From an uncultured Kiritimatiellota bacterium (lineage in GTDB: Bacteria > Verrucomicrobiota > Kiritimatiellia > RFP12 > DVOR01), in NCBI GenBank assembly GCA_944389945.1, contig CALXOF010000012.1, positions 1,261 to 65,260 of the forward strand: a DNA stretch of 64,000 bases, in the 5' to 3' direction. Position numbers and translations under genes: made by a program. The notes beneath the pieces are model-generated. The model was not told where the DNA came from, ran no database searches, and saw only the letters and a program-made list of their open reading frames with translations. Shown piece by piece: positions 1-58,248 of the stretch (position 1 is its first letter; the number at the start of each line of letters is the position of its first letter).

Positions 1-1006
1 GGAATATGCGCTTCGCGTGGCCGAAGAGCCGCGCCGTCATGGGCTTGAAGTGGAGATGTCTGTGGCATTGGCCCAAGCATTTGCGAAGCGAGAGCGGCAA
101 GTGGAGGTCTTTATCGCACGGCAGGATGCCCGACTTAACGAAGATAAAGCGAACGGTAAAACGTGCCTCCTGCAACTCTTAGCGGACTGCGAAGCAATTC
201 GGCAAGCGGTGATTTTGCTTGATGGAGGACGCGGGGAGCTCCGCGTTCGGATTGATTCGTCGTTGTATTGGGCATGCGAACGCTATCTGGTCGCCTATGG
301 AAACGCGACAGGCATTTGGCAGGATTGCACGGGGTTAAACCGACTCTTGGAGGGATTGGCCTGTACCCAGGAGACACGGGCACGTTGGGAAGAAGACGAG
401 GCAATTTTGCAGAGGAACGCAGAGCTCGAGGCGTCGACAGAGGTCTGCCTATTGTGTGGCCGCCATCATGCCAGGTGTGGTAAGTACTTCTGGGGCGCGA
501 CGGTTCTTTTGCATAAAAACGCTCGGAGGTTGCCGACCGGCCAGATAAAAGGTGAGGTGCGCGAAGTATCGTTCCCATGTTGCAAGGTATGCTACAATCG
601 GCTTCCATTGGCATTGAAAGCAGGGGAACGTGACAAAGAACCGGGGCTCTTCCGTGTATGGCCTTCCGGACCGGCGGAGGAATGTTCCGGCAAGGCGATG
701 CGGCGGCGTCTGAAGGATTTCCCGCCAATCGCGGCGTTGTTGCGCGACGGCTGGCTCCTAGAAGAGATACCGACCGATGACACACCAATCCAATCGCCTA
801 CGCCCCCACAAGATGGGAAGCCAACACCGCCAAAGGAGACGCGGCAAGATGGAAGTATCTTGTCTCAGGTGATTCTGAATATACTCGTTTTCTTTGCTGT
901 CCTCTTCGTGTCACTTTTGTTGATGCGTGGATGCGAGTCGGTATTAGAAAAATTTGAGACTTCACCACAGGAAGATCTTATCTCGAACGAATCAATAATG
1001 TGGTGA
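1..1006 (+). CDS. 5'-truncated membrane-anchored Zn-ribbon protein, paralog of the C-terminal half of 1067..2572
   Basis: Frame is open from the window edge. Aligns with the next ORF (CERYLVAYGNATGIW/CNRCLIAYGNRSKTW; CLLC..CKVC/CWKC..CRDC; LLRDGW/LLAQGW). Hydrophobic C-terminal helix. Confidence 0.75.
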   Translation, partial: EYALRVAEEPRRHGLEVEMSVALAQAFAKRERQVEVFIARQDARLNEDKANGKTCLLQLLADCEAIRQAVILLDGGRGELRVRIDSSLYWACERYLVAYGNATGIWQDCTGLNRLLEGLACTQETRARWEEDEAILQRNAELEASTEVCLLCGRHHARCGKYFWGATVLLHKNARRLPTGQIKGEVREVSFPCCKVCYNRLPLALKAGERDKEPGLFRVWPSGPAEECSGKAMRRRLKDFPPIAALLRDGWLLEEIPTDDTPIQSPTPPQDGKPTPPKETRQDGSILSQVILNILVFFAVLFVSLLLMRGCESVLEKFETSPQEDLISNESIMW

Positions 1007-1066
1007 AGGCGTGTGTAAAGGTTGGGGGATTGTGGTATGATTGACATGTAACGTTGGAGCAGTGAC

Positions 1067-2572
1067 ATGGGAGCGAGACCCGAACAAGACGCGTTAATGC
1101 GGATGTGCACGGAGACCGTGTACGCGGACAATCCGTTTCATTTGCTGGGATTGCCGACAACGGCAACGCCGCGGCAGATTCGCCGGCGCAGAGAGGATTT
1201 GGAGGGTGCACGAGAGCTGGGGCAGTCCGCTTGGGAAGAAGCGTTTCACCACCTCTTGGGTAATCGTCCGACACCGAACGAAGAGGATGTGGAGGAGGCC
1301 TTCGCGAAGTTGGAGGACCCAGAGTCGCGCTTGTTGGCGGAGTTCTTCTGGATGTGGCCGCTGGGTGAGGAAGACCCGGCGCTGAAAGCATTACAGGAAC
1401 GTCACAGTGGCGCGGCGTTCGATGCTTGGGAACGAGCGGCGCTGGGATTCGGACGGTCGCGTCCCATCGCGCAGCACAACCTCGCCGTGGCCTATCAGAT
1501 GTACGCAATTGACGCGGAAACACAAGCGATTGACTATGAGGGGACAATCCCAGAAGACTTCGCGCGAACAATGCGTGAATATTGGGAGAAGGCGTTCCTC
1601 TATTGGGAAGAATTGGCGGACAATGATGACTTTTGGGAGCTCTTTGAGGCCCGGATGCGGGAGTTTGACGACCCGCGTTTGACCGGAGGCTTTATCCGCC
1701 GTCTGCGCCAAGAGTTCCCCGTTGCGTTCGACAACATCAACTTGGCATTGGCAGTCCGCTACGTCAAGGCCGGGAAACTCTCTGAGGCTCGTCGTCATGT
1801 AGATTATATGCGCCGCACGATGAGTGGGCTTGACGATGTGGAGCAGAACTTCTCCGCGCTTTTCGCTCCCATCGAAAAGCGTCTGAATTTGTTGGTTGAC
1901 CAATACGATGAGAAAGTACAAGAAGACCCGCTCAACGGAAAACAATGCTTCTTGGACTTAGTGAACCAAGCAGACGGTTTCACCGACCTCGCCAATGGTC
2001 TCCTCGAGGATGACAATTCTATTCGACTTCGCCTTTTGTCCACCATCTTCAAGGCTTGTAACCGATGCCTGATTGCCTATGGCAACAGATCTAAGACGTG
2101 GGCGGAGTGTGCAACGTTAAATGAACGCCTGAAACCTTTTGCATGCACGAAGCAATTGCAGGAGTTATACGTCAAGAACTCTGCAATTTTGCATAGCAAT
2201 GTGCAAGCGGATGAAGAACAGAACACGTGTTGGAAGTGCAAACGAAAAATCTCGGAGGTCGGGCCTCTACATACTTGTGAAGTGCGTATGTATGGGAATA
2301 TTCAGCCAAGTCCCTTGTCGAATTTCTTTGAGCCAAGCGTGACCTATTCCAAATGTGTCGTTAAAATCCCACTTTGTCGAGATTGTTGGATCGTATGGCC
2401 ATGGGAAAAACGAGCCTATCCAGAAGTCAAACGATTGCTCGCACAAGGGTGGCGTATCGGAGAACGCCCCACAGACGCGGAAGTACGCAGTAATGCTTCC
2501 GCAGGGTGTCTATTGCCGTTGATGCTGATGTTGTTGGTTGGTTTGATTGCAGGTTGCACCGCGTTGGCGTAA
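1067..2572 (+). CDS. J-like domain (no HPD) + helical/TPR-like region + CxxC..CxxC Zn ribbon + C-terminal TM anchor
   Basis: NPFHLLGLPTTATPRQIRR and EEAFAKLEDPESR resemble DnaJ helices I-II and III-IV. AQHNLAV is TPR-like. Hydrophobic C-terminus. Confidence 0.7.
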   Translation: MGARPEQDALMRMCTETVYADNPFHLLGLPTTATPRQIRRRREDLEGARELGQSAWEEAFHHLLGNRPTPNEEDVEEAFAKLEDPESRLLAEFFWMWPLGEEDPALKALQERHSGAAFDAWERAALGFGRSRPIAQHNLAVAYQMYAIDAETQAIDYEGTIPEDFARTMREYWEKAFLYWEELADNDDFWELFEARMREFDDPRLTGGFIRRLRQEFPVAFDNINLALAVRYVKAGKLSEARRHVDYMRRTMSGLDDVEQNFSALFAPIEKRLNLLVDQYDEKVQEDPLNGKQCFLDLVNQADGFTDLANGLLEDDNSIRLRLLSTIFKACNRCLIAYGNRSKTWAECATLNERLKPFACTKQLQELYVKNSAILHSNVQADEEQNTCWKCKRKISEVGPLHTCEVRMYGNIQPSPLSNFFEPSVTYSKCVVKIPLCRDCWIVWPWEKRAYPEVKRLLAQGWRIGERPTDAEVRSNASAGCLLPLMLMLLVGLIAGCTALA

Positions 2573-2589
2573 GACGGGAAGGAATGCAA

Positions 2590-3126
2590 ATGAATTGGAG
2601 CAGAAAGATGAGACGGAAACACGGGCGGGAGTCGACACGAAAACTGGTAGATTCACGGTCGGTGCTGGCGTTTGACGTGAGGCAAGTACCGAAGGCGCGA
2701 CCGGAGATGCCGAAATTGACACCGGAGGAGCGCCAACTGACGAAGCTTTACGCGACGTTCGCCACGAATGTGTGGCGACTGAAGCGACAGATTCTGGACG
2801 CGGAAACGGGCGAACCGAAAGAAGGTTTTGAGCGGGTGGCACGCTACGTGACCTCGATGGAGGGTGCGTTGGAAGATGCCCACGTGAAAACCGTTGATTA
2901 CGATGGGCGCCCTTATGACGAGGGTGACGCGGTGAAAGTGATCACCTTTGAGTCACGCGCGGACTTGAAGCGCGATGAGTATGTGGAAACCTTGTTGCCG
3001 ACCGTCCAGTGGACGAACGCAGAAGGGAAGATGACGTTGTTGCAGATGGCGGAGGTTGTCGTCGGACAAGCCCCGCAGAAAGAGGATGAGCAGAAGGAGC
3101 AGGACAATGGCACGGAGCACGATTGA
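2590..3126 (+). CDS. GrpE-like nucleotide exchange factor (short, divergent)
   Basis: GRPYDEG..VETLLPTV..LLQMAEVVVG matches the GrpE beta-domain pattern. Overlaps the Hsp70 start. Alternative ATG at 2584. Confidence 0.65.
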   Translation: MNWSRKMRRKHGRESTRKLVDSRSVLAFDVRQVPKARPEMPKLTPEERQLTKLYATFATNVWRLKRQILDAETGEPKEGFERVARYVTSMEGALEDAHVKTVDYDGRPYDEGDAVKVITFESRADLKRDEYVETLLPTVQWTNAEGKMTLLQMAEVVVGQAPQKEDEQKEQDNGTEHD

Positions 3127-5602
3127 TTTTGGCATCGACTTGGGGACGACGAACAGCGCCATTGCGGTGCTGAAGGGTGTCCGCCCTGAGGTCATCAAGA
3201 ACAACTTGGACGCTGATATCACGCCCTCGGCGGTGTATCTGAACAAGGCCGGAAACGTCACAGTGGGGGCGAGGGCCAAGAATAAGCTGGAGGAAGAACG
3301 CTCGGCGGAGGACGCGTACATCGAGTTCAAGCGGCGGATGGGGACGGACGCGGACTATCTTTTCCGAACATCCGGTCTGCGCAAGACTCCTGAAGAACTC
3401 TCGGCCGAGATTCTGAAGAGTTTGCGCGGGAACGTCTTGCAGCGTTTGGACGAGGACATCTCCGCAGCGGTGATTACCATCCCGGCAGCCTTCGCGCAAC
3501 GGCAATGCGTGGCGACGAAACGCGCAGCGGAACTAGCGGGATTCACGCAGTGCCCGCTCTTGCAAGAGCCGGTCGCCGCCTCACTGGCCTATGGTTTCCA
3601 AGCGGATACGGCCAAGCGCTCGTTTTGGATGGTCTTTGACTTCGGCGGCGGCACGTTCGACGCGGCCGTTATGAAGGCCGAGGACGGCGACATCCAAGTG
3701 GTGAACCACGGTGGCGACAACTTCCTGGGTGGCGCGGACATCGATTGGGCCATCATCGAGACGTACATCATTCCGCAGTTGCAGGATTCCTATAACCTGC
3801 CGGACTTCCGGCGCGGGAACCTGCGTTGGCGCGCGGCCCTCGCTAAACTCAAACGTGCCGTGGAAATGGCTAAGATTGACCTCTCCCGGGCACCGTCCGC
3901 CGCCCTGGACGGGTGCGTCTTTGAAGATGAGGACGGTGAAGAGGTCGACCTGGAAGGGTTTGAGCTGACACAAGCACAGGTGAAACGCGTGGCCGAGCCG
4001 CTCATCCTGCGTGCGGCGGACAAATGCCGGGCCGTCTTGGCAGAGAAACACCTGTCGCCATCGGCCATTGAACGTGTGTTGTTGGTGGGCGGCCCGACCC
4101 TTGCGCCTTACTTCCGTGAGACGTTGGGAGAAGCGTTGGGAATCCCATTGGACCATAGCGTGGACCCGCTGACGGTGGTGGCCCAGGGCGCGGCCATCTT
4201 TGCCGGGACACAACGGATTGAGCGTGGCCTTCGCGCAAGTGCGACCGCGGCTCCCATGGGAGCCTACAAGGTAACGTTAAACTATTCGCCCATCGGCCCG
4301 GACGATGACCCCGCCGTGACCGGCGAGGTCGCCATGCCCACCGGTGGCGTGCCTACGGAGGGGCTTCGCATCGCCTTTGTCAACCGGAACACGCGATGGT
4401 CGAGCGGGGAAATCCCGCTCAATGCGGAGGGTAAGTTCCGCCTCCGTCTGCGCGCCGTGCCGGGGGAGCAAAACATCTTTGACATCACATTGCGTGATTC
4501 CATCGGCAATGCGTTGCCCACGGACGTCAAGGAAATCGCCTACACCGTCGGCGCGACCATCAAGGCGCAGATTACGTGCAACGACATCTCCGTGGAACTG
4601 AGCGGAAACGCGGTCAAACTGGCAGTCCCCAAAGGTACCGCCTATCCCTTCAAAAAGTCCGTCCGTGGCGTGATCACCAACGTCGCCCTCAAACGTGGCG
4701 AGCCTGGGCAAGTCACGATTCCTATTCTGGAAGCCATCAATGGAAACGCCGGCACCAAAGGCGACCACAACATCAAGTTGGGCGATTTGGTCATCAAGTC
4801 CGAAGACATTCGCCGCGATCTACCGTTGGGCAGTGATTTGGAATTGACCCTCACAGCCAAAGAACCGGGTTCCATCAACGCCACGGCATACGTCGAGCTC
4901 TTGGACGAGACCTTCTCCGTGACGCTCCGCTATGACCGTGAATCCATCAGCGAAGAAGAGCTATGGAAGGAGGCAGAACGCGAAAAGGCGCGTATCCCAA
5001 AGGTATTGGAAAAGGCCGGAGACCTCGTTGACGCGGAAACCCGGCAGAAACTGGAAACGTTGCCGCAGGAACTCGATGGCTTGTGGCGCGGCATTGAAGA
5101 CCCCGCCGAGGCTCAGAAGATTCAGCAACGCATCATCGAATTGCGCATCATAATCGATGAGGTGGAGGATACCGTGGAAATCCCGGCGAAACTGCATCTC
5201 ATCGAGATTCGCCTGGATGCCATCGACAAGCAGACCGGCCACATGACCGCCGGGCAGATGACCGCCGCTGACGAATTGCGTCGCCGCTATGAGGAGCAGA
5301 AATCCAAGCGTGACCCCGCCGCCATTGAGGCACTCAACGAAGAGGTGGGGGCGTTACTCTTCGATATCTACTCCGAGTTGCCGGAATATTGGAAGGGATT
5401 CCTTGGCCACCTGTATGGGAAGCGTGAACAGATGTCAGACCAACGCGAAGCCGACCTGCTCTTCGCGCAAGGGGCTCGTGCAACCGAGCGCGACGACATC
5501 GAGGCCATGCGCAAAACCGTTATCCGTTTGTTGGACCTGCTTCCGCCTGAAGCACGAGAAAACGCCCAACGCGGCCACAATTCCGGAATCACCATGCTAT
5601 GA
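3107..5602 (+). CDS. Atypical Hsp70/DnaK-family chaperone (831 aa)
   Basis: GIDLGTTNS, ITIPAAF, QEPVAA, FDFGGGTFD, GGDNFLGG and VLLVGG motifs. Extra domain after the ATPase domain and a long helical C-terminus. Confidence 0.93.
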   Translation: MARSTIDFGIDLGTTNSAIAVLKGVRPEVIKNNLDADITPSAVYLNKAGNVTVGARAKNKLEEERSAEDAYIEFKRRMGTDADYLFRTSGLRKTPEELSAEILKSLRGNVLQRLDEDISAAVITIPAAFAQRQCVATKRAAELAGFTQCPLLQEPVAASLAYGFQADTAKRSFWMVFDFGGGTFDAAVMKAEDGDIQVVNHGGDNFLGGADIDWAIIETYIIPQLQDSYNLPDFRRGNLRWRAALAKLKRAVEMAKIDLSRAPSAALDGCVFEDEDGEEVDLEGFELTQAQVKRVAEPLILRAADKCRAVLAEKHLSPSAIERVLLVGGPTLAPYFRETLGEALGIPLDHSVDPLTVVAQGAAIFAGTQRIERGLRASATAAPMGAYKVTLNYSPIGPDDDPAVTGEVAMPTGGVPTEGLRIAFVNRNTRWSSGEIPLNAEGKFRLRLRAVPGEQNIFDITLRDSIGNALPTDVKEIAYTVGATIKAQITCNDISVELSGNAVKLAVPKGTAYPFKKSVRGVITNVALKRGEPGQVTIPILEAINGNAGTKGDHNIKLGDLVIKSEDIRRDLPLGSDLELTLTAKEPGSINATAYVELLDETFSVTLRYDRESISEEELWKEAEREKARIPKVLEKAGDLVDAETRQKLETLPQELDGLWRGIEDPAEAQKIQQRIIELRIIIDEVEDTVEIPAKLHLIEIRLDAIDKQTGHMTAGQMTAADELRRRYEEQKSKRDPAAIEALNEEVGALLFDIYSELPEYWKGFLGHLYGKREQMSDQREADLLFAQGARATERDDIEAMRKTVIRLLDLLPPEARENAQRGHNSGITML

Positions 5603-6279
5603 CAGAGGAATCCGCAATTTTACGGGCCTATGGATTGGCCACGCAAGGCAAGACCGAAGAGGCCGAACGCTTGCTCGGTAGCGTGAAAACCACAGCGGCC
5701 AAAGATTTGTTGGCGCGCATTCGTTTCGACTCCGGCGATGAAGCCGCCGCAAAACGTCTCTGGGAAGAGGTCCTCGAGGAAAACCCCGACCATGCCGGGG
5801 CCAAAGCCGCGCTGGCTTGCATCGGCAAACCGCGTGAGGTGGTCGATGAAGCTTGCTGGCGATTTCGTTGGACCTTTCTTTCCCTTTTGGTGGGTGTCGC
5901 AGTGGTTTTCCTACTCGCCGGCGTGCTCGTTGGACGGGACTGGAAGTCGGCAAACAACCAACCAACAATCCCCACAGAGACTCCGCAGACCACCTTGCCT
6001 TCGCCGACCACTTCGCCAAATCCAGAACTTCAGTTTACGCTGCCAATGTCAAACGCAGACTTTCTCGTTCAGAAAGCCGCGTTCTGGGACAGTGTACCGC
6101 CGAGGGCAAAAGTCGTTTTGTCAGGCGGCCCGAGTGGCGAAGCTCCTTTACGCCAACGCCGTCTTGCCGTGGTGGCAGATTTGTTGGTTGAAGAATATCA
6201 CCTGACAACCTGGGACCAACTTCTGATTGATCTCTCACCGAAAGAGGATGACGCATATCGTCTGCAAGTCCTCCTCTAG
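5599..6279 (+). CDS. TPR-containing single-pass membrane protein with a degenerate OmpA-like C-terminal domain
   Basis: TPR pattern (LARIRFDSGDEAAAKRLWEEVLEENPDHAGAKAAL), TM helix, Pro/Thr linker, LRQRRLAVVADLL. ATGA overlap with the Hsp70 stop. Confidence 0.65.
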   Translation: MTEESAILRAYGLATQGKTEEAERLLGSVKTTAAKDLLARIRFDSGDEAAAKRLWEEVLEENPDHAGAKAALACIGKPREVVDEACWRFRWTFLSLLVGVAVVFLLAGVLVGRDWKSANNQPTIPTETPQTTLPSPTTSPNPELQFTLPMSNADFLVQKAAFWDSVPPRAKVVLSGGPSGEAPLRQRRLAVVADLLVEEYHLTTWDQLLIDLSPKEDDAYRLQVLL

Positions 6280-6475
6280 TGTCCGGGGAACTTTCTCGCA
6301 AAGCCGGCGCCTATACGCCGCCTTCTACGCTAGTTTCCACTTTTGAACGCCCCTTCAGGGGCACGATAACGTGGGAATTCTAAGCGCGGCGCGACCACCG
6401 TGAGCAATGGAGCTCGCAGCGTTTCCACACCAGACCGTCTTTGCGGTTCTCTCTCATTTTCCCCAAACAGGATTG
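6274..6475. mobile_element. MITE-like element with CAATA(C/G)TGTCCGG-type terminal inverted repeats, carrying module A in reverse
   Basis: Left end ctctagtgtccggggaa, right end ttttccccaaacaggattg. Interior matches 26897-27018 and 32603-32726. Confidence 0.6.
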
Positions 6476-7028
6476 AATGGAGACACAATAGTGTCCGGAG
6501 AAAGTTTAGGATACTGTGCAGTACTTGTAATTGAGGATATACTAGCGCATTCCCAAACGGTGAGTAGTTCTCCAAATGACAGGCCTTAAAGATGACGTAT
6601 CTTACTACAAGCAATGGAATTGTCTTTGATTTAGAAAAGACAAATGACAGGTCTTTGGCAAGGGTGCGTGGTGTGATTCACTGCGATTGGCCGGAGACAC
6701 CCGGTTTGGATGAGGACCCTCTCTCATATTATTAGTAAGTAAGGGGGAGGTGCGATGGCCAAGGGCTTTTCGCACCAGTGTCACCGGCGAAGGCTGGTGT
6801 TTTTGCCCTAAGCACCACGGCTTCCCGCGAAGACATGCGTGCTCCGATGGTGTGCCCAGCTGATTAGTAGATTGGCTGATTGGCATTCTGGGAGAGCTTT
6901 CGCCTCATGCCCTTACGTCGCTCTTAAATCGACCGGTGTGGAATGGAAGGCGGCGGGTACGGTCAACGGCGAAGCCGTAGCGTACCCAATGGCACCCGAG
7001 CGTTGCGCGCCCTCAATGATATCTTTAC

Positions 7029-8494
7029 GCGCGTTTCGTCAAATGATTTGTCCCTTTTTTTGCTACAAGGGAGGGAGTGGCGGCAAGAGCAATTTGGGGT
7101 GGGAGGATTGCGGACCTGCCGTGGCGTCTGTCGGGGAGCGTCCCCGCAGGGGCGGCGCGAAGCGCCGAGCGACCCGACAGACGCCACGGCAGGGGGGGGA
7201 AGAGTCGAAGGTAATCATCCTTGTAGGGTGGCATCGCGACGAAGTCGGGCCAAGGCGTACGTGATTTGTTCCATCAGAACGAGCGCGTTGAGCGTGGCAA
7301 GGCGACGCTTCAAAGCAGCGCGGTGTCGCAGGCGTAGACCGGGGTGTTCAAGCAGGCGTTGAGCGGGTGTGATGGGTGGGGAGTAGTGACGGGAAGACCC
7401 TTTTCCGGAGAGGTGGGGTGTCTTGGAACGCAAGGTCATGGTGGGAAGGCAGTAGTTGTGATGGCAGGAAATCTTGGCGCATTGGCGATTGAGCGCTTCG
7501 GTCTGCGCACGGTTGTCGTAACGACCATAGCCGAAGTTGGTACGGACAAGGCTGTAGTTTCGTTGCTCGACATGGGCATTGTCGTTCTTCTGGCGAGGGC
7601 GGGAGCGTTGGTAGGCGTACTCTGGGTGTCGCCGGACAAAGGCGAGCAGGTGGGCGTTCATGAATTCGTTCCCGTTGTCAAAGTGGAGGATACGCACTTT
7701 GTAGGGGAAGGACGCGAGAGCGTCCTCCAGTGCGGCAAAAACGCCCGCGGCTCCTTTGTTCCAGACGCACCGGATCTCAGTCCAGAGCGTGACGCGATCC
7801 GTCACGGTGAGAATCCAGTGGAAGTTCCCGCTCATGTCGCCCCCGCACAACGCGACGGTATCGACCTGCACCTCTCCAGGCTTGCACAGATAGGCCGGAA
7901 TCGCCTCACCACTGATTTCCTGGGCCAGCGCCTGCGCGGCTGAAGGCGCGCGCGGGGTTCTACGCCTGACGGTGAATCCAGGCTTCTTTCTGGGCCTTCC
8001 CCGTAGGATGCGATCCATGGTCGAGGCGCTCATCCGCCGCAACCTGTCAGCGACCTCTGGGCGAAGATGGCGCACCTCCCCAAACTCCTCTACAAAGCGG
8101 TCAATGCGCGCCTGAAGCGCTTTGGTATTGGGACATCCGGCCCGTTCCCAGAGTTCGATGAGCATATTGCGGACCTCCACCGAATAGGTTGGCCCGCGCC
8201 CGGTTTTTTGCCGGTTCTGACACGGTTCCCACGTAACAACTTCGCCGCGTAATCCTTCGAGAAACCAGTCAATGTCACCAGGAAGTCCCGGATCTCACGC
8301 CTTTCCTTGTTCGTCTTTTTCGTACGATAGATCACCGCGAGTTCTGATATATTGACACTAATTTCTTGTGGTTTCATAGTGTTATCCTTTTTCTATGAAA
8401 AACGGCACATACAAATGACGAAACAATGGAAATCCTACCCCATCGAAGCGCTTCTTTCACTGCAAAAACGGGACTTTATTATGACGAAATGCGC
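7029..8494 (-). mobile_element. Insertion sequence with an integrase-core (rve) DDE transposase (IS481/ISNCY-like)
   Basis: Imperfect TIRs gcgcgtttcgtca..gtccc (7029) and gggac..tgacgaaatgcgc (8494). Extra internal copy of the motif near 8404-8424. Confidence 0.75.
7215..8377 (-). pseudogene. DDE integrase-type transposase, frameshifted at an A6 run
   Basis: VQVDTV / HFDNGNEF / NDNAHVEQRN triad in 7215..8180. N-terminal part in 8090..8377. Adding one A at 8204-8209 gives GKKTGRGPTYSVEV. Confidence 0.85.
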
Positions 8495-8575
8495 ATTTTC
8501 CCCTGATAGGATTGAATGGAGACGTGGGGGGCGGGATTGTGGTAGACTAACAGAAATCGAAAGGATAGGTAGACA

Positions 8576-10390
8576 TTGAGTACAATTGGAAGAGTTGAAC
8601 CGCAGGACATCAGGCTAAATCCGCCTGAGGGCGGGTGGAAGTTGGAGCGTGGGGGAACGCTCCCGGCCATCGATGTGCGCTATGAGATGGTGGGGACGCC
8701 AGCGCCGGACGGCGCAAATGTGGTCTTTATCTGCCATGCACTGACGGGTGATGCGCACGTGGCGGGTTGGCGCCCGGAGGAAAACCCGGAGAAGGACAAG
8801 CCCAGCGGCTGGTGGGACGGCATGGTCGGCCCGGGGCGGGGCATCGACACGGACCGCTTCTGCGTGCTCTGCGCCAATATCTTGGGCGGGTGCGCCGGCA
8901 CGACGGGCCCGAGCTCAATCAACCCGGAGACGGGTGAGCCTTATGGCTCCACCTTCCCTGAAATCACGATGGGCGACATCGTGGATGTCTTCCGTGCGCT
9001 GACGCGTCAGCTGGGCTTCACGCGCCTGGCGGCGGTGGTGGGCGGCAGCTTCGGCGGCATGTTGGCGCTGGAGTGGGCCATCCGCCACCCAGACGACATG
9101 GGGCGCTGCGTCTTGGTGGCGACGGCGGCCTCGCTGAACACGCAGGCTTTGGCCTTTGACATCGTGGCGCGCCAGGCTATCATCCAGGACCCGAACTGGC
9201 GCCACGGCGAATATTACGGTGGCGCGCGCCCCGTGGCCGGTCTGGCGAGCGCGCGCCGTCTGGCCCACATCACCTATCTCTCGCAAGCGGGGATGGACGA
9301 GAAGTTCGGTCGCGAGAAGCGGGAGGAGTGGCTCAAGCAGGGGCAAGACTTCCATTCCCGCATGCGCCAGGACTTCCGTACCTATTTCCAGATCGAGTCT
9401 TACCTTGAATATCAGGGGCAGAAGTTCGTGCGCCGGTTCGATGCGAACAGCTATCTGCAAATCACGCGCGCGCTAGATGCCTATGACCCCGAGGAGACCT
9501 TCGGCTCGCTGGAGGCAGCCATCCGCCGTATCAAGGCCAAGGTGTTGATGATCAGTCTGCGCGGGGACTGGCTCTTCTCGAAGGAGCAGGCGGAGCATTT
9601 CGTGCGGGCGTGCCTGAAGGAACACCGCGACATCTCCTATTGTCGGCTGGACGGCAAGATGGGCCACGACGCCTTCCTCACGCAGATCGACGAGCTGAAG
9701 ACGGTCATCCAGGCCTTCCTCACGGCCACCGAGACGCGCGACCCTTCGACCCTCGACCCCGACCAGGCGAAATTCTACAAAGACTTCGCCCGGCAGATCC
9801 CCGAAGGCGCACGTGTGCTGGACATCGGCTGCGGCGACGGGACGCTCCTCAAGCACCTGGCCACCCACCAACGCGCTTGGGGCGTGGGCCTGGAGCGCGA
9901 CCTGGACAAGATTGTCCAAGCCCTCCACAAGGGCGTGAACGTGGTGATGACCAATATCGACACGCACCTGCGCGACATGCCCGACCACCTCTTCGACGTC
10001 GCCGTCATCTCGCACACCATCCAAGTGTTGCGCCGGCCAGACTTGATGATGAAGCAACTCCTGCGCGTGGCCGATTGGGCGCTCATTGCCTTCCCGAACT
10101 TCGGCTATATCGGGATGCGTTCGCAACTCTTCTTCCTGGGCCGTATGCCGCGCACCAAGGAGTTCCCCTTCGACTGGTACGACACGCCCAACATCCACAA
10201 CTGCACACTGAAGGACTTCTACGACTTCAGCCGGAAATATGACCTCAAGGCGACGCTCCTCTCTTGTCATTCGGCCTCGTGGCTCGGCAAGTTGCTGACG
10301 CGTCTGGGGATGAAGAACCTGGGCGCGGGCGGCGTAATCCTGCGCCTGACCGACGCGACGAAAGACAAGGAGGCGAACGGTGGACGCTGA
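8576..10390 (+). CDS. metX: Homoserine O-acyltransferase fused to a MetW-like SAM-methyltransferase domain
   Basis: CHALTGD, GWWDGMVGPG, GGSFGGM, GHDAFL; then VLDIGCGDG, FPNFG, WYDTPNIH. Confidence 0.93.
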   Translation: MSTIGRVEPQDIRLNPPEGGWKLERGGTLPAIDVRYEMVGTPAPDGANVVFICHALTGDAHVAGWRPEENPEKDKPSGWWDGMVGPGRGIDTDRFCVLCANILGGCAGTTGPSSINPETGEPYGSTFPEITMGDIVDVFRALTRQLGFTRLAAVVGGSFGGMLALEWAIRHPDDMGRCVLVATAASLNTQALAFDIVARQAIIQDPNWRHGEYYGGARPVAGLASARRLAHITYLSQAGMDEKFGREKREEWLKQGQDFHSRMRQDFRTYFQIESYLEYQGQKFVRRFDANSYLQITRALDAYDPEETFGSLEAAIRRIKAKVLMISLRGDWLFSKEQAEHFVRACLKEHRDISYCRLDGKMGHDAFLTQIDELKTVIQAFLTATETRDPSTLDPDQAKFYKDFARQIPEGARVLDIGCGDGTLLKHLATHQRAWGVGLERDLDKIVQALHKGVNVVMTNIDTHLRDMPDHLFDVAVISHTIQVLRRPDLMMKQLLRVADWALIAFPNFGYIGMRSQLFFLGRMPRTKEFPFDWYDTPNIHNCTLKDFYDFSRKYDLKATLLSCHSASWLGKLLTRLGMKNLGAGGVILRLTDATKDKEANGGR

Positions 10391-16786: not shown

Positions 16787-16902
16787 CATTAAAACTTCAC
16801 AAAGCATCTTTCAATCGTGTCGAGGAAAAGGTTCACCTCGAAAACAGGCTTGCGTAAAGTCTTGGAGGCTTGACCAGGCACGTTGAGGAATCCCACCCAA
16901 GA

Positions 16903-16999
16903 GGGGTCTTTCTGAGACCCTATAGTGGTCCGAGGTCAACCACTATAGTGGTCGAGGGCGAGACCCTATAGTGGTCCGACCCGAAACCCTTAGGGGTCC
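16903..16999. repeat. 23-bp-periodic CTATAG palindrome array (copy 1)
   Basis: Cores at 16920, 16943, 16966, plus CTTAGG at 16989. Confidence 0.9.
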
Positions 17000-58046: not shown

Positions 58047-58156
58047 TAAGGGCCCTTTCTGGACCCTTAAGGGTTTCGACCCCGACCACTATAGGGTCTC
58101 ACCCTCGACCACTATAGTGGTTGACCTCGGACCACTATAGGGTCTCAGAAAGCCCC
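58047..58156. repeat. 23-bp-periodic CTATAG palindrome array (copy 4, inverted relative to copy 1)
   Basis: CTTAAG 58066; CTATAG 58089, 58112, 58135. Confidence 0.9.
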
Positions 58157-58248
58157 TTTACGAACGTCCCAAAAGGGCTAGAAGAGACGGGAGGTAGCCG
58201 ACGCTGTCTCCGCACTACAAATCTTACCGTACCGTCTCTGTGCGAGTT

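What the first reader, a model, noticed from the sequence alone, without database searches (positions are those of the whole stretch)
1..6279. Candidate undescribed membrane-tethered Hsp70 system: Zn-ribbon/J-like paralogs + GrpE-like + atypical Hsp70 + TPR-TM-OmpA-like
Seen: five co-oriented genes, with overlaps at 3107-3126 and an ATGA overlap at 5599. Their codon style is less C-biased than the core genes, and the block abuts a mobile element. Three of the five products have TM anchors. Established: Hsp70 works with a J-domain activator and a GrpE exchange factor, and both partners appear here in divergent form. Inference: this is a dedicated trans-envelope chaperone or sensor module rather than housekeeping dnaK. 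It may respond to envelope stress or act in defence. I do not recognise it as a named system.
Basis: partly seen in the sequence, partly recalled or inferred. Interest (0 to 1): 0.85.

Follow-up and report, generated by a model that had tools for sequence, protein, structure and literature searches.

The report
Membrane-anchored non-canonical Hsp70 chaperone operon
This is a real, widely spread but unnamed bacterial gene set that pairs an unusual Hsp70 chaperone with its own exchange factor and membrane-anchored helper proteins, and it may be a further class of bacterial Hsp70 machine whose job is still unknown.

Summary
Five co-oriented genes lie at window 1-6279, and the first begins 716 nt upstream of the window.

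- **g1 and g2** are tail-anchored paralogs. Each has an HPD-less J-like head, a TPR-like solenoid and a Zn ribbon.
- **g3** is a divergent GrpE-like protein.
- **g4** is an 831-aa Hsp70. It has intact ATPase residues, SBDbeta and lid, plus a ~100-aa beta-sandwich insert.
- **g5** is a TPR-TM protein. Its homologs often carry an OmpA or LysM cell-wall-binding domain.

A canonical dnaK and grpE-dnaJ lie on other contigs.

The g2-g3-g4 triad is present in 54 of 54 fully flanked related loci from many phyla, and g5 in 39 of 54. A Ser/Thr kinase and a ClpB-like AAA+ protein often join them. The g2 family has 3384 representatives at E<=1e-10, and every source name seen is 'hypothetical protein'.

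Distribution is patchy: 11 of 401 genomes sampled in the phylum and 0 of 14 in the genus.

No PADLOC, NCBIfam or literature match names the system. A flank scan showed no defence-island signal.

Best reading: a dedicated, horizontally spread, membrane- and cell-wall-tethered Hsp70 machine. Its client and purpose are inferred, not shown.

The parts
2..1006 (+). g1: 3' part (334 of 573 codons) of the first tail-anchored J-like/TPR-like/Zn-ribbon protein. The gene starts 716 nt upstream of the window at G000:C12:545.
   Evidence: ORF. Paralog of g2 (31% identity, E 5e-73): 55% identity in the J-like head against 28% in the solenoid. CxxC at aa 388 and 433. TM at aa 522-554. Family HMM E 5e-76.
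1067..2572 (+). g2: 501-aa tail-anchored protein. HPD-less J-like four-helix head (aa ~20-95), alpha-solenoid (aa 104-385), CxxC...CxxC Zn-ribbon beta-hairpins (aa 386-440), C-terminal TM (aa 475-501).
   Evidence: AF2 model pLDDT 91.2. No Pfam or NCBIfam hit. Weak profile hits to DnaJ J domains at profile positions 28-91, E 0.2-0.6. No PDB fold match at E<0.08, only TPR-like proteins. Family found in 71 of 80 related loci.
2590..3126 (+). g3: divergent GrpE-like protein, the putative nucleotide exchange factor (178 aa from ATG 2590; ORF open from GTG 2506).
   Evidence: 20 of 34 family members hit Pfam GrpE at E<=0.1, best 5.8e-5. The window copy itself does not. Family profile's top PDB hit is GrpE 4ani, E 0.026. 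Found in 75 of 80 loci, directly upstream of g4. Start choice.
3107..5602 (+). g4: 831-aa non-canonical Hsp70. NBD (aa 1-370), beta-sandwich insert (aa ~385-490), SBDbeta (aa ~494-606), long helical lid and extension (aa 616-810).
   Evidence: Pfam HSP70 E 9e-70 over aa 8-367 only. Below the NCBIfam DnaK and HscA cut-offs. AF2 pLDDT 88.5. Full-length DnaK/BiP structures align over ~740 columns, E to 8e-40. Catalytic residues are invariant in 37 sequences. Insert and Pro150 in place of the DnaK Arg167 equivalent.
5599..6279 (+). g5: 226-aa protein with a short N-terminal TPR, one TM (aa 88-115) and a ~110-aa C-terminal ectodomain. This domain is OmpA-like in relatives and degenerate here.
   Evidence: Weak TPR hits below cut-off. 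TM. Family HMM E 1.3e-48. Of 41 family members, 34 hit TPR_2, 16 hit OmpA (best 2.9e-14) and 1 hits LysM; the window copy has no OmpA hit.

Best explanation
The block is a self-contained accessory Hsp70 chaperone machine tethered to the cytoplasmic membrane. It is spread by horizontal transfer.

**Shown**
- g4 is a complete Hsp70 (NBD, SBDbeta, lid) with all ATPase residues conserved and an extra beta-sandwich between the NBD and SBDbeta.
- g3 is a diverged GrpE.
- g1 and g2 are tail-anchored paralogs. Their J-like head is conserved. Their TPR-like solenoids have diverged.
- g5 belongs to a TPR-TM family whose ectodomain is often a peptidoglycan-binding OmpA or LysM domain.
- The four families travel together across phyla.

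**Inferred mechanism**
- The J-like heads of g1 and g2 dock g4 at the membrane. Their divergent solenoid and Zn-ribbon parts select different clients or sense different states, as different J-proteins do for one Hsp70.
- g4 clamps and releases client segments under ATP hydrolysis.
- g3 resets g4 by ADP release.
- g5 fixes the assembly to the cell wall and may bind g4 through its cytoplasmic TPR.
- In relatives a soluble Ser/Thr kinase regulates the machine, and a ClpB/ClpC-like AAA+ protein adds unfolding power.

The most likely purpose is remodelling or quality control of membrane- or envelope-associated proteins under stress. This is analogous to HscC with its tail-anchored DjlB and DjlC, and to transmissible protein-quality-control islands.
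For: **Domain identities:**

**Conserved synteny**
- One search found 544 relatives, of which 80 loci were kept.
- By jackhmmer, g2, g3, g4 and g5 families are in 71, 75, 78 and 49 of the 80 loci.
- Among the 54 loci with at least 1.5 kb on both sides, g2 is in 54, g3 in 54, g5 in 39, an adjacent kinase in 17 and an adjacent AAA+ in 6.
- By BLAST clustering the kinase family is in 36 of 80 loci and the AAA+ family in 10 of 80.
- A same-order relative has kinase-g2-g2-g3-g4-g5 (L094).

**Separate housekeeping set:**

**Accessory, patchy distribution**
- g2 homologs occur in 11 of 401 genomes sampled in the phylum, own genome included. None occur in 14 same-genus genomes.
- They occur in 16 of 101 genomes of the genus of G401, whose locus L042 bears a Nocardia record title.
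- The module has lower G+C than its surroundings.

**Adaptor logic**
- The g1 and g2 heads are 55% identical and the solenoids 28%.
- g2 is duplicated in several loci.

**Docking of the g2 head (aa 1-130) on g4 (aa 1-615)**
- Complex prediction gave weak support: score 0.51, best control 0.00.
- That mark was reached by 58 of 80 solved complexes and 2 of 110 mismatched pairs. At 0.60 or under it was reached by only 7 of those 80 and by both mismatches.
- The runs agree in at least 87% of contacts, and the partner's pLDDT is at least 66.
- A DnaK-J-domain complex is solved (5nro), so the pass may come from likeness.

**Precedents**
- HscC with tail-anchored DjlB and DjlC: Mayer review PMC8215388, passages read.
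- tLST islands: PMC8290217, abstract start seen in a search listing only.
Against: - No client, phenotype or biochemical activity is known.
- The g2 head lacks HPD, and g4 lacks the Arg that meets HPD in DnaK. Canonical J-stimulation is therefore unlikely, and the docking role is a guess backed only by a weak in-silico score.
- The window's own g3 and g5 do not reach Pfam GrpE or OmpA by themselves.
- The kinase and the AAA+ protein were not found next to the window's copy. The contig starts 544 nt upstream of g1 in a dispersed repeat. No AAA+ remnant lies at 6201-8700.
- A patchy, HGT-like distribution fits a conflict system equally well.
- The flank survey used crude ORF calls, at most two flanking genes per locus (131 of 180 candidates), and only the 80 best of 544 loci.
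Confidence: 0.5

Rival explanations
1. It is an anti-phage or other conflict system. The Hsp70 and TPR-like proteins sense a phage product or proteotoxic state. The kinase and the membrane-anchored g1/g2/g5 then trigger membrane damage or growth arrest.
For: - Distribution is patchy within the phylum and within a Nocardia-labelled genus.
- G+C is lower than the surroundings, and an IS and dispersed repeats lie at the borders.
- Hsp70-like domains with GrpE, DnaJ or TPR partners and membrane or cell-wall-binding parts are described in predicted conflict systems: Kaur et al. 2020, PMC7159879, section 29 read.
- Hsp70-like domains also occur in CoCoNuT systems: PMC11090510, passages read.
- DnaK-like domains are fused to EACC1-protease modules: PMC12642450, passages read.
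- Paralogous, diverging solenoid proteins resemble sensor diversification.
Against: - PADLOC gave no hit for any of the five proteins at E<=1.
- Among 131 flanking proteins of related loci, the commonest PADLOC models matched 2 of 131 and were generic sigma-54 AAA+ models. The commonest Pfam family matched 3 of 131.
- No recognisable effector domain (nuclease, protease, NADase, known pore-former) occurs in the core genes.
- tblastn found no copy in 72,556 plasmid records or 50,697 phage records.
Confidence: 0.2
2. It is an Hsp70-driven pulling or translocation motor at the membrane. It would resemble the mitochondrial import motor, which combines a membrane-tethered J and J-like pair, Hsp70 and the GrpE homolog Mge1. 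It would extract or thread a polypeptide at the membrane, with g5 as a cell-wall-fixed stator.
For: - The part list is parallel: tail-anchored J-like proteins lacking HPD, a dedicated GrpE-like factor, a complete Hsp70 and a peptidoglycan-anchored TM partner in relatives.
- A listing for PMC9695410 describes the PAM parts Pam16, Pam18 and Mge1. Only its abstract start was seen; the rest of the analogy is recalled.
Against: - No channel, secretin or other translocon gene recurs in the neighbourhoods.
- g1 and g2 have almost nothing outside the membrane in this window.
- The idea is pure analogy.
Confidence: 0.1
3. It is merely a redundant or decaying duplicate of the housekeeping DnaK-DnaJ-GrpE set, with no dedicated function.
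For: - g4 and g3 clearly derive from Hsp70 and GrpE.
- The window copy may lack the kinase and AAA+ genes seen in relatives.
Against: - All five frames are intact and translationally coupled.
- 58 columns are invariant across 37 g4 sequences from several phyla, including the catalytic residues.
- The architecture, with insert, long lid and HPD-less tail-anchored partner, is conserved in thousands of representatives.
- g4 scores far below the DnaK and HscA equivalog cut-offs.
Confidence: 0.03

Closest known systems
E. coli HscC with its tail-anchored J-proteins DjlB and DjlC (Mayer review PMC8215388, passages read; locus seen in NC_000913.3)
   Same: - A specialised, non-housekeeping Hsp70 is encoded beside two paralogous C-terminally membrane-anchored co-chaperone-type proteins.
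- A function at the plasma membrane is proposed for it.
- Sel1-repeat genes sit in the E. coli locus, and Sel1 repeats occur in 3 of 38 g2 homologs.
   Different: - g4 resembles HscC only in the NBD (32% identity, 151 bits). It is no closer to HscC than to DnaK (181 bits to 4rtf).
- The g2 family profile shows no similarity to DjlC (hhalign probability 0.1).
- DjlB and DjlC have true J domains, whereas g1 and g2 lack HPD.
- Here there is a dedicated GrpE-like gene, a beta-sandwich insert, a long lid extension and a TPR-TM-OmpA partner.
Canonical DnaK-DnaJ-GrpE
   Same: - The same three roles are represented.
- ATPase residues are conserved.
- The SBDbeta and lid folds are present.
- A GrpE-like beta-domain motif is present.
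   Different: - g4 scores 243 bits against the 822.55-bit cut-off of TIGR02350.
- There is no VLLLD linker motif.
- A ~100-aa insert is present.
- Pro replaces the Arg167 equivalent.
- The J-like partner has no HPD, no G/F region and no client-binding beta-sandwich domains, and it is membrane-anchored.
- The genome has its own canonical set elsewhere.
HSP70-GrpE theme of GAP1-N2 GTPase-centric conflict systems (Kaur et al. 2020, PMC7159879; section 29 read)
   Same: - HSP70 plus GrpE, with DnaJ- or TPR-fused partners, membrane segments and cell-wall-binding domains.
- Some loci carry a second NBD-only Hsp70 gene, as in L043 and L074 here.
- The phyla overlap: actinobacteria, planctomycetes, verrucomicrobia and chloroflexi.
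   Different: - Those systems are defined by GAP1-N2 GTPases and FNIII-repeat proteins.
- No GTPase or FNIII family recurs in the 80 loci.
- Their figure 6B and source data were not visible to me, because figures are not held and supplements are closed. I therefore cannot tell whether their HSP70 is this family.
Transmissible locus of stress tolerance / protein quality control (tLST; PMC8290217, abstract start seen in a search listing only)
   Same: It is a horizontally transmitted set of proteostasis genes. Some related loci here add ClpB-like and FtsH-like AAA+ genes.
   Different: - The gene content is entirely different. As I recall it, tLST has no Hsp70, GrpE or J-like genes.
- The host range is different.

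Membership tests
Canonical DnaK (NCBIfam TIGR02350 / NF001413) | Whole-protein score above the curated equivalog cut-off | tested here: not met
   243.1 bits against cut-off 822.55, and 240.8 against 648. Only aa 9-368 match.
Canonical DnaK (NCBIfam TIGR02350 / NF001413) | ATPase catalytic residues of the NBD: DxGTTNS, the Lys70 equivalent, the Glu171 equivalent and DxGGGTFD (residue numbers recalled for E. coli DnaK) | tested here: met
   D7, D11, G13, T14, T15, K75, E154, D178, G180-G182, T183 and D185 are invariant in 37 sequences.
Canonical DnaK (NCBIfam TIGR02350 / NF001413) | SBDbeta plus helical lid following the NBD | tested here: met
   Foldseek aligns full-length DnaK/BiP chains (about 600 aa) over about 740 columns. 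E is 8e-40 to 1e-30, and TM normalised to target reaches 0.83.
Canonical DnaK (NCBIfam TIGR02350 / NF001413) | Short hydrophobic interdomain linker (VLLLD type), and the Arg167 equivalent that contacts the J-domain HPD (roles recalled) | tested here: not met
   The own DnaK has ..DVLLLDVTPL.. and ..LRIINEP... g4 has a Y-K-V-T-L-N-Y strand followed by a ~100-aa insert, and ..CPLLQEP...
HscA (TIGR01991) | Score above the equivalog cut-off | tested here: not met
   212 bits against 708.55.
HscC-DjlB/DjlC system | Hsp70 orthologous to HscC, and partners with DjlC-type J domains | tested here: not met
   g4 against E. coli HscC gives 32% identity over the NBD only. The g2 profile against DjlC gives hhalign probability 0.1.
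GrpE (Pfam PF01025) | Match to the GrpE profile | tested here: inconclusive
   The window g3 has no hit at E<=0.1. 20 of 34 family members match at E<=0.1, best 5.8e-5, which is below or near the gathering level. The family profile's best PDB match is GrpE 4ani, E 0.026, across the beta-domain junction.
J domain (Pfam PF00226) | His-Pro-Asp motif in the loop between helices II and III | tested here: not met
   There is no HPD at that loop in the alignment of 78 N-terminal segments. The tripeptide occurs in 2 of 78 segments. In L053 it lies before helix I. The L032 occurrence was not located.
J domain (Pfam PF00226) | Profile match and four-helix J fold | tested here: inconclusive
   0 of 38 members hit DnaJ at E<=0.01. 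The family profile weakly hits six DnaJ J-domain chains at positions 28-91, E 0.2-0.6. The AF2 model has helices at aa 23-27, 35-51, 72-83 and 85-93. No structural superposition could be run on the head alone.
OmpA-like peptidoglycan-binding domain (PF00691), for g5 | Match to the OmpA profile | tested here: inconclusive
   The window g5 has no hit. 16 of 41 family members match (best 2.9e-14) and 1 of 41 has LysM instead.
Known or candidate anti-phage systems (PADLOC-DB 2.0.0) | Any component matching a PADLOC model | tested here: not met
   0 families for each of the five proteins at E<=1.
GAP1-N2 GTPase-centric conflict systems | Linked GAP1-N2-type GTPase(s) and FNIII-repeat protein | tested here: not met
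   The recurrent families in the 80 loci are only g2-g5, a kinase and an AAA+ protein. No GTPase appears among the families hit by 2 or more of 131 flank proteins, though only the top 25 of 86 families were listed.

The most novel reading that the evidence does not exclude
This is a fourth class of prokaryotic Hsp70 machine, beside DnaK, HscA and HscC. It is a horizontally mobile complex fixed to the membrane and peptidoglycan and gated by a kinase. HPD-less J-like, tail-anchored sensor paralogs hand a signal or a polypeptide to a dedicated Hsp70/GrpE pair. It works either as an envelope-spanning stress or infection sensor-effector, or as an Hsp70 pulling motor analogous to the mitochondrial import motor. 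In other words, an Hsp70 has been repurposed from folding to signalling or mechanical work in bacteria.
Probability: 0.2. Interest if true: 0.85.

Novelty: new variant of a known kind. Interest (0 to 1): 0.62.

Why it matters
A standard review counts three types of prokaryotic Hsp70: DnaK, HscA and HscC (PMC8215388, passages read). A 2026 review states that the many DnaK-derived paralogs of bacteria are functionally unexplored (PMC13580251, passages read).

This module gives one such paralog a defined, conserved partner set:
- its own exchange factor;
- a large unannotated family of membrane-anchored J-like proteins (3384 representatives at E<=1e-10);
- a cell-wall anchor;
- often a kinase and a disaggregase-like ATPase.

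That makes its biochemistry directly testable. It also raises a sharp question: how is an Hsp70 driven by a partner without the HPD motif?

If the function turns out to be envelope quality control, stress tolerance or immunity, it would add a widespread accessory system. It is found in Verrucomicrobiota, Planctomycetota, Chloroflexota, Acidobacteriota and Actinomycetota.

Tried and rejected
- **Family libraries.** PADLOC and NCBIfam gave no system-level name.
- **Fold search of g2.** The g2 model gave only weak TPR-like matches against PDB, none at E<0.08. The J-like head could not be tested on its own.
- **Sequence searches of two g4 parts against PDB.** The beta-sandwich insert and the C-terminal helical part found nothing useful.
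- **Domain fusions of long g2 relatives.** Eight were scanned. One had Sel1 and HEAT repeats, one had a sub-threshold nSTAND6 hit, and six had nothing. No Rosetta-stone clue emerged.
- **ESM Atlas for g2.** Only 'hypothetical protein' clusters came back.
- **Ortholog of the module kinase in the own genome.** Six kinases match at 28-33% identity, none next to the module. Whether a kinase lies beyond the contig start cannot be told.
- **AAA+ remnant downstream of g5.** None was found at 6201-8700 by HMM.
- **M. xanthus Hsp70 papers.** PMC8265645 (passages read) and the listing gave no description of this architecture. SglK/GrpS as an analogue is recalled only and was not tested.
- **Laid reads.**
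  - Contigs from RNA libraries X19 and X20 touch 19 and 16 of 30 bins at depths of about 2-6. Such contigs do not prove transcription and may be DNA carry-over, so I draw no expression claim.
  - Bins without cover are not evidence of silence.
  - Independent DNA contigs in X6 and X10 cover window 1-6665 and stop there. They also stop about 1212 nt upstream of the window, near the C12 start. Both ends lie in dispersed repeats, so these breaks are assembly effects.
- **Phylogeny.** I considered a tree of the NBD with DnaK, HscA and HscC but did not build it. The claim 'distinct class' therefore rests on NCBIfam cut-offs, architecture and pairwise scores only.
- **Regex.** The helix III/IV motif pattern was badly written, and its count is not used.
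- **Literature.** That the system is not in print rests on searches of the held library only. Supplements and figures of Kaur et al. 2020 could not be seen and may bear on this.

Full report
**What is there**

The window is G000:C12:1261-65260. Five + strand ORFs fill positions 1-6279. The first is cut by the window edge, not by the contig: the whole gene is C12:545-2266 and encodes 573 aa. The ATG at 3107 lies inside g3, which stops at 3124-3126. The ATGA at 5599-5602 joins g4 and g5. The likely g3 start is the ATG at 2590, behind a GGGAAGGA motif. One strong hydrophobic segment each sits at the C-terminus of g1 and g2 and in the middle of g5. The module has 0.53-0.59 G+C. The other large ORFs of the window have a median of 0.647, from a noisy ORF set.

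Downstream lie short dispersed repeats and an rve/IS481-like transposase at 7215-8180 on the minus strand. One contig from an RNA library joins 7030 to 8494, so a form without this ~1.46-kb element exists.

**The Hsp70 (g4)**

Pfam HSP70 matches only aa 8-367 (E 9e-70). NCBIfam DnaK and HscA models score 243 and 212 bits, far under their cut-offs of 822 and 708.

An AlphaFold2 model built from 37 sequences has pLDDT 88.5. It shows the NBD, a beta-domain at aa ~387-480, a second beta-domain at aa ~494-606 and a long helical region at aa 616-810. Foldseek aligns complete DnaK and BiP chains over about 740 columns. E reaches 8e-40, and the TM-score normalised to the target reaches 0.83. SBDbeta and lid are therefore present.

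Alignment with the genome's own DnaK shows that the first beta-domain is an insert of about 100 residues after a Y-K-V-T-L-N-Y strand, where DnaK has its VLLLD linker. It also shows that the Arg167 equivalent of DnaK is a Pro. The catalytic residues are invariant across the family.

**The exchange factor (g3)**

The window copy has no Pfam hit. In an alignment of 34 homologs the conserved core looks like the GrpE C-terminal half. 20 of 34 members hit Pfam GrpE at E<=0.1, best 5.8e-5. The family profile's best PDB match is GrpE 4ani, E 0.026. I accept it as a divergent GrpE-like protein.

**The tail-anchored paralogs (g1, g2)**

They are 31% identical overall. Identity is 55% in the first 100 residues and 28% in the following solenoid.

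The g2 model has pLDDT 91.2. It shows four short N-terminal helices, an alpha-solenoid, two beta-hairpins carrying CxxC...CxxC, and a C-terminal TM helix. 28 of 38 homologs have such a Cys pair.

The N-terminal ~95 residues read like a J domain (Y-x-x-N-x-F-R-x-L-G-L ... L-x-D-P-x-x-R). The loop between helices II and III is long and carries no HPD. None of 38 members hits Pfam DnaJ at E<=0.01. The profile touches six DnaJ J-domain chains only at E 0.2-0.6.

The whole model has no PDB match at E<0.08. The weak hits are TPR-like proteins. Every source name seen for relatives is 'hypothetical protein', and none of 92 relatives has a precomputed Pfam domain. The Atlas gives the same picture.

**g5**

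The window copy has weak TPR hits and a TM segment. Of 41 family members, 34 hit TPR_2, 16 hit OmpA (best 2.9e-14) and 1 hits LysM. The window copy itself has no OmpA hit.

**Conservation**

A pattern scan of one genome per species found 544 relatives of g4 and kept 80 loci. By their record titles these come from Kiritimatiellae, Verrucomicrobiota, Planctomycetota, Chloroflexota, Acidobacteriota, Desulfobacterota-like MAGs, Nitrospirota and many actinomycetes.

My own ORF calling plus jackhmmer finds the g2, g3, g4 and g5 families in 71, 75, 78 and 49 of the 80 loci. They are almost always co-oriented in the order g2-g3-g4-g5. In Actinomadura the order is g3-g4-g5-g2. Among the 54 loci with at least 1.5 kb on both sides, g2 and g3 are present in 54 and g5 in 39.

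Two further families recur:
- A ~370-aa Ser/Thr kinase (Pkinase, E 3e-43) lies directly upstream. It is in 36 of 80 loci by clustering and in 17 of 54 by a strict adjacency rule.
- A ClpA/B-like double AAA+ protein lies downstream. It is in 10 of 80 loci by clustering and in 6 of 54 by the strict rule.

A same-order relative shows kinase-g2-g2-g3-g4-g5, with the kinase about 530 nt before the first g2. In the window's contig only 544 nt precede g1, and the contig starts in an ~85-nt repeat with more than 40 copies. The presence of a kinase here is therefore open.

The g2 family has 4744, 3384 and 1586 representatives at E<=1e-3, 1e-10 and 1e-30 among 1.84 billion cluster representatives.

**Not housekeeping, and accessory**

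A canonical dnaK (880 bits) is on C17, and grpE with dnaJ is on C26. g2 homologs were found in 11 of 401 genomes sampled in the phylum, including the own genome. None were found in 14 genomes of the same genus. They were found in 16 of 101 genomes of the genus of G401, whose locus L042 bears a Nocardia record title. This patchiness, the lower G+C and the repeats and IS at the borders indicate horizontal spread.

**Is it a defence system?**

The evidence here does not favour it:
- PADLOC has no model for any component.
- I scanned 131 flanking proteins, at most two per locus out of 180 candidates. The commonest Pfam family was a sigma-70 region, in 3 of 131. The commonest PADLOC models matched 2 of 131 and were generic sigma-54 activator models.
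- tblastn with g2 and with the g4 C-terminal half found nothing in the plasmid collection. g2 found nothing in the phage collection.

**Binding test**

Complex prediction was run with g4 aa 1-615 and g2 aa 1-130. It gave weak support: score 0.51 against a best control of 0.00. That mark was reached by 58 of 80 solved complexes and 2 of 110 mismatched pairs. At 0.60 or under it was reached by only 7 of those 80 and by both mismatches. The runs agree in at least 87% of contacts, and the partner's pLDDT is at least 66. A DnaK-J-domain complex is solved, so the pass may reflect likeness.

**Comparison with what is known**

The nearest functional analogue is HscC with the tail-anchored paralogs DjlB and DjlC (PMC8215388, passages read; locus). 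The families differ, however. g4 matches HscC only in the NBD at 32% identity. g2 has no similarity to DjlC.

Kaur et al. 2020 describe HSP70-GrpE-DnaJ/TPR themes inside GAP1-N2 GTPase systems (section 29 read). No GTPase or FNIII family recurs here. I could not see their figure or source data.

A 2026 review calls bacterial DnaK derivatives functionally unexplored (PMC13580251, passages read). My six literature searches found no description of this module.

**Verdict**

The idea of a 'J activator' and the lean towards defence are not shown.

I rate it a new variant of a known kind. It is a widespread, unnamed Hsp70 system with an HPD-less, tail-anchored partner family.

The most likely mechanism is a membrane- and cell-wall-anchored chaperone cycle acting on membrane-associated clients, at confidence 0.5. 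A conflict-system role (0.2) and a pulling-motor role (0.1) are the live rivals.

Noticed in passing
G000:C12:1-85 (L004:1-85); copies inside the window at 58076-58160 (+) and 16902-16978 (-): A dispersed repeat of about 85 nt has more than 40 copies at 91-100% identity across the 34 contigs. It contains three GACCACTATAG-type sub-motifs. The contig starts inside one copy, which probably caused the assembly break upstream of the operon.
   Followed up: partly
window ~6612-6680 and ~6942-7016: Two other short dispersed repeats lie between g5 and the IS, with about 40 matches in the genome at 75-95% identity. DNA contigs from other samples covering the operon all stop at 6665, and depth there is 10-30 times higher. 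No tRNA or Rfam family lies in 6200-8700.
   Followed up: partly
window 7031-8493 (-): An IS481-like element carries its transposase in two ORFs, 8090-8377 and 7215-8180. One contig from an RNA library joins 7030 to 8494 with 6 other letters between, at depth 2. A form without the element therefore exists in another sample.
   Followed up: partly
window 1118-1209 and G000:C12 ~595-687: A 92-nt stretch of the g2 J-like coding region is matched a second time in the g1 J-like region by contigs from two DNA runs. This suggests gene conversion or strong constraint between the paralogs (tables 5 and 8).
   Followed up: no
L073:11451-17097 (-), L076:1815-4990 (-); L018:5536-8004, L043:10533-11753, L074:5707-6870, L048:11515-13197, L078:10636-13114: Some genomes carry a second, diverged copy of the module on the opposite strand. 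Others carry extra Hsp70-like genes next to g4, and some of these are NBD-only (387-406 aa).
   Followed up: no
L006:13747-17325: Downstream of one related module lies a 1192-aa protein that combines AAA_2, AAA and an FtsH-type M41 peptidase domain. This is a second proteostasis-type ATPase in the neighbourhood.
   Followed up: no
window 8576-10390 (+): A 604-aa ORF follows the IS. By eye it looks like a homoserine O-acetyltransferase fused to a MetW-like methyltransferase part. No tool was run on it.
   Followed up: no
L096 (E. coli K-12 674000-690000): The hscC locus holds two repeated gene triplets as annotated: a Sel1-repeat protein, a DUF1266 protein and a tail-anchored DjlB or DjlC. Sel1 repeats also occur in 3 of 38 g2 homologs, a parallel that may be worth a look.
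   Followed up: no
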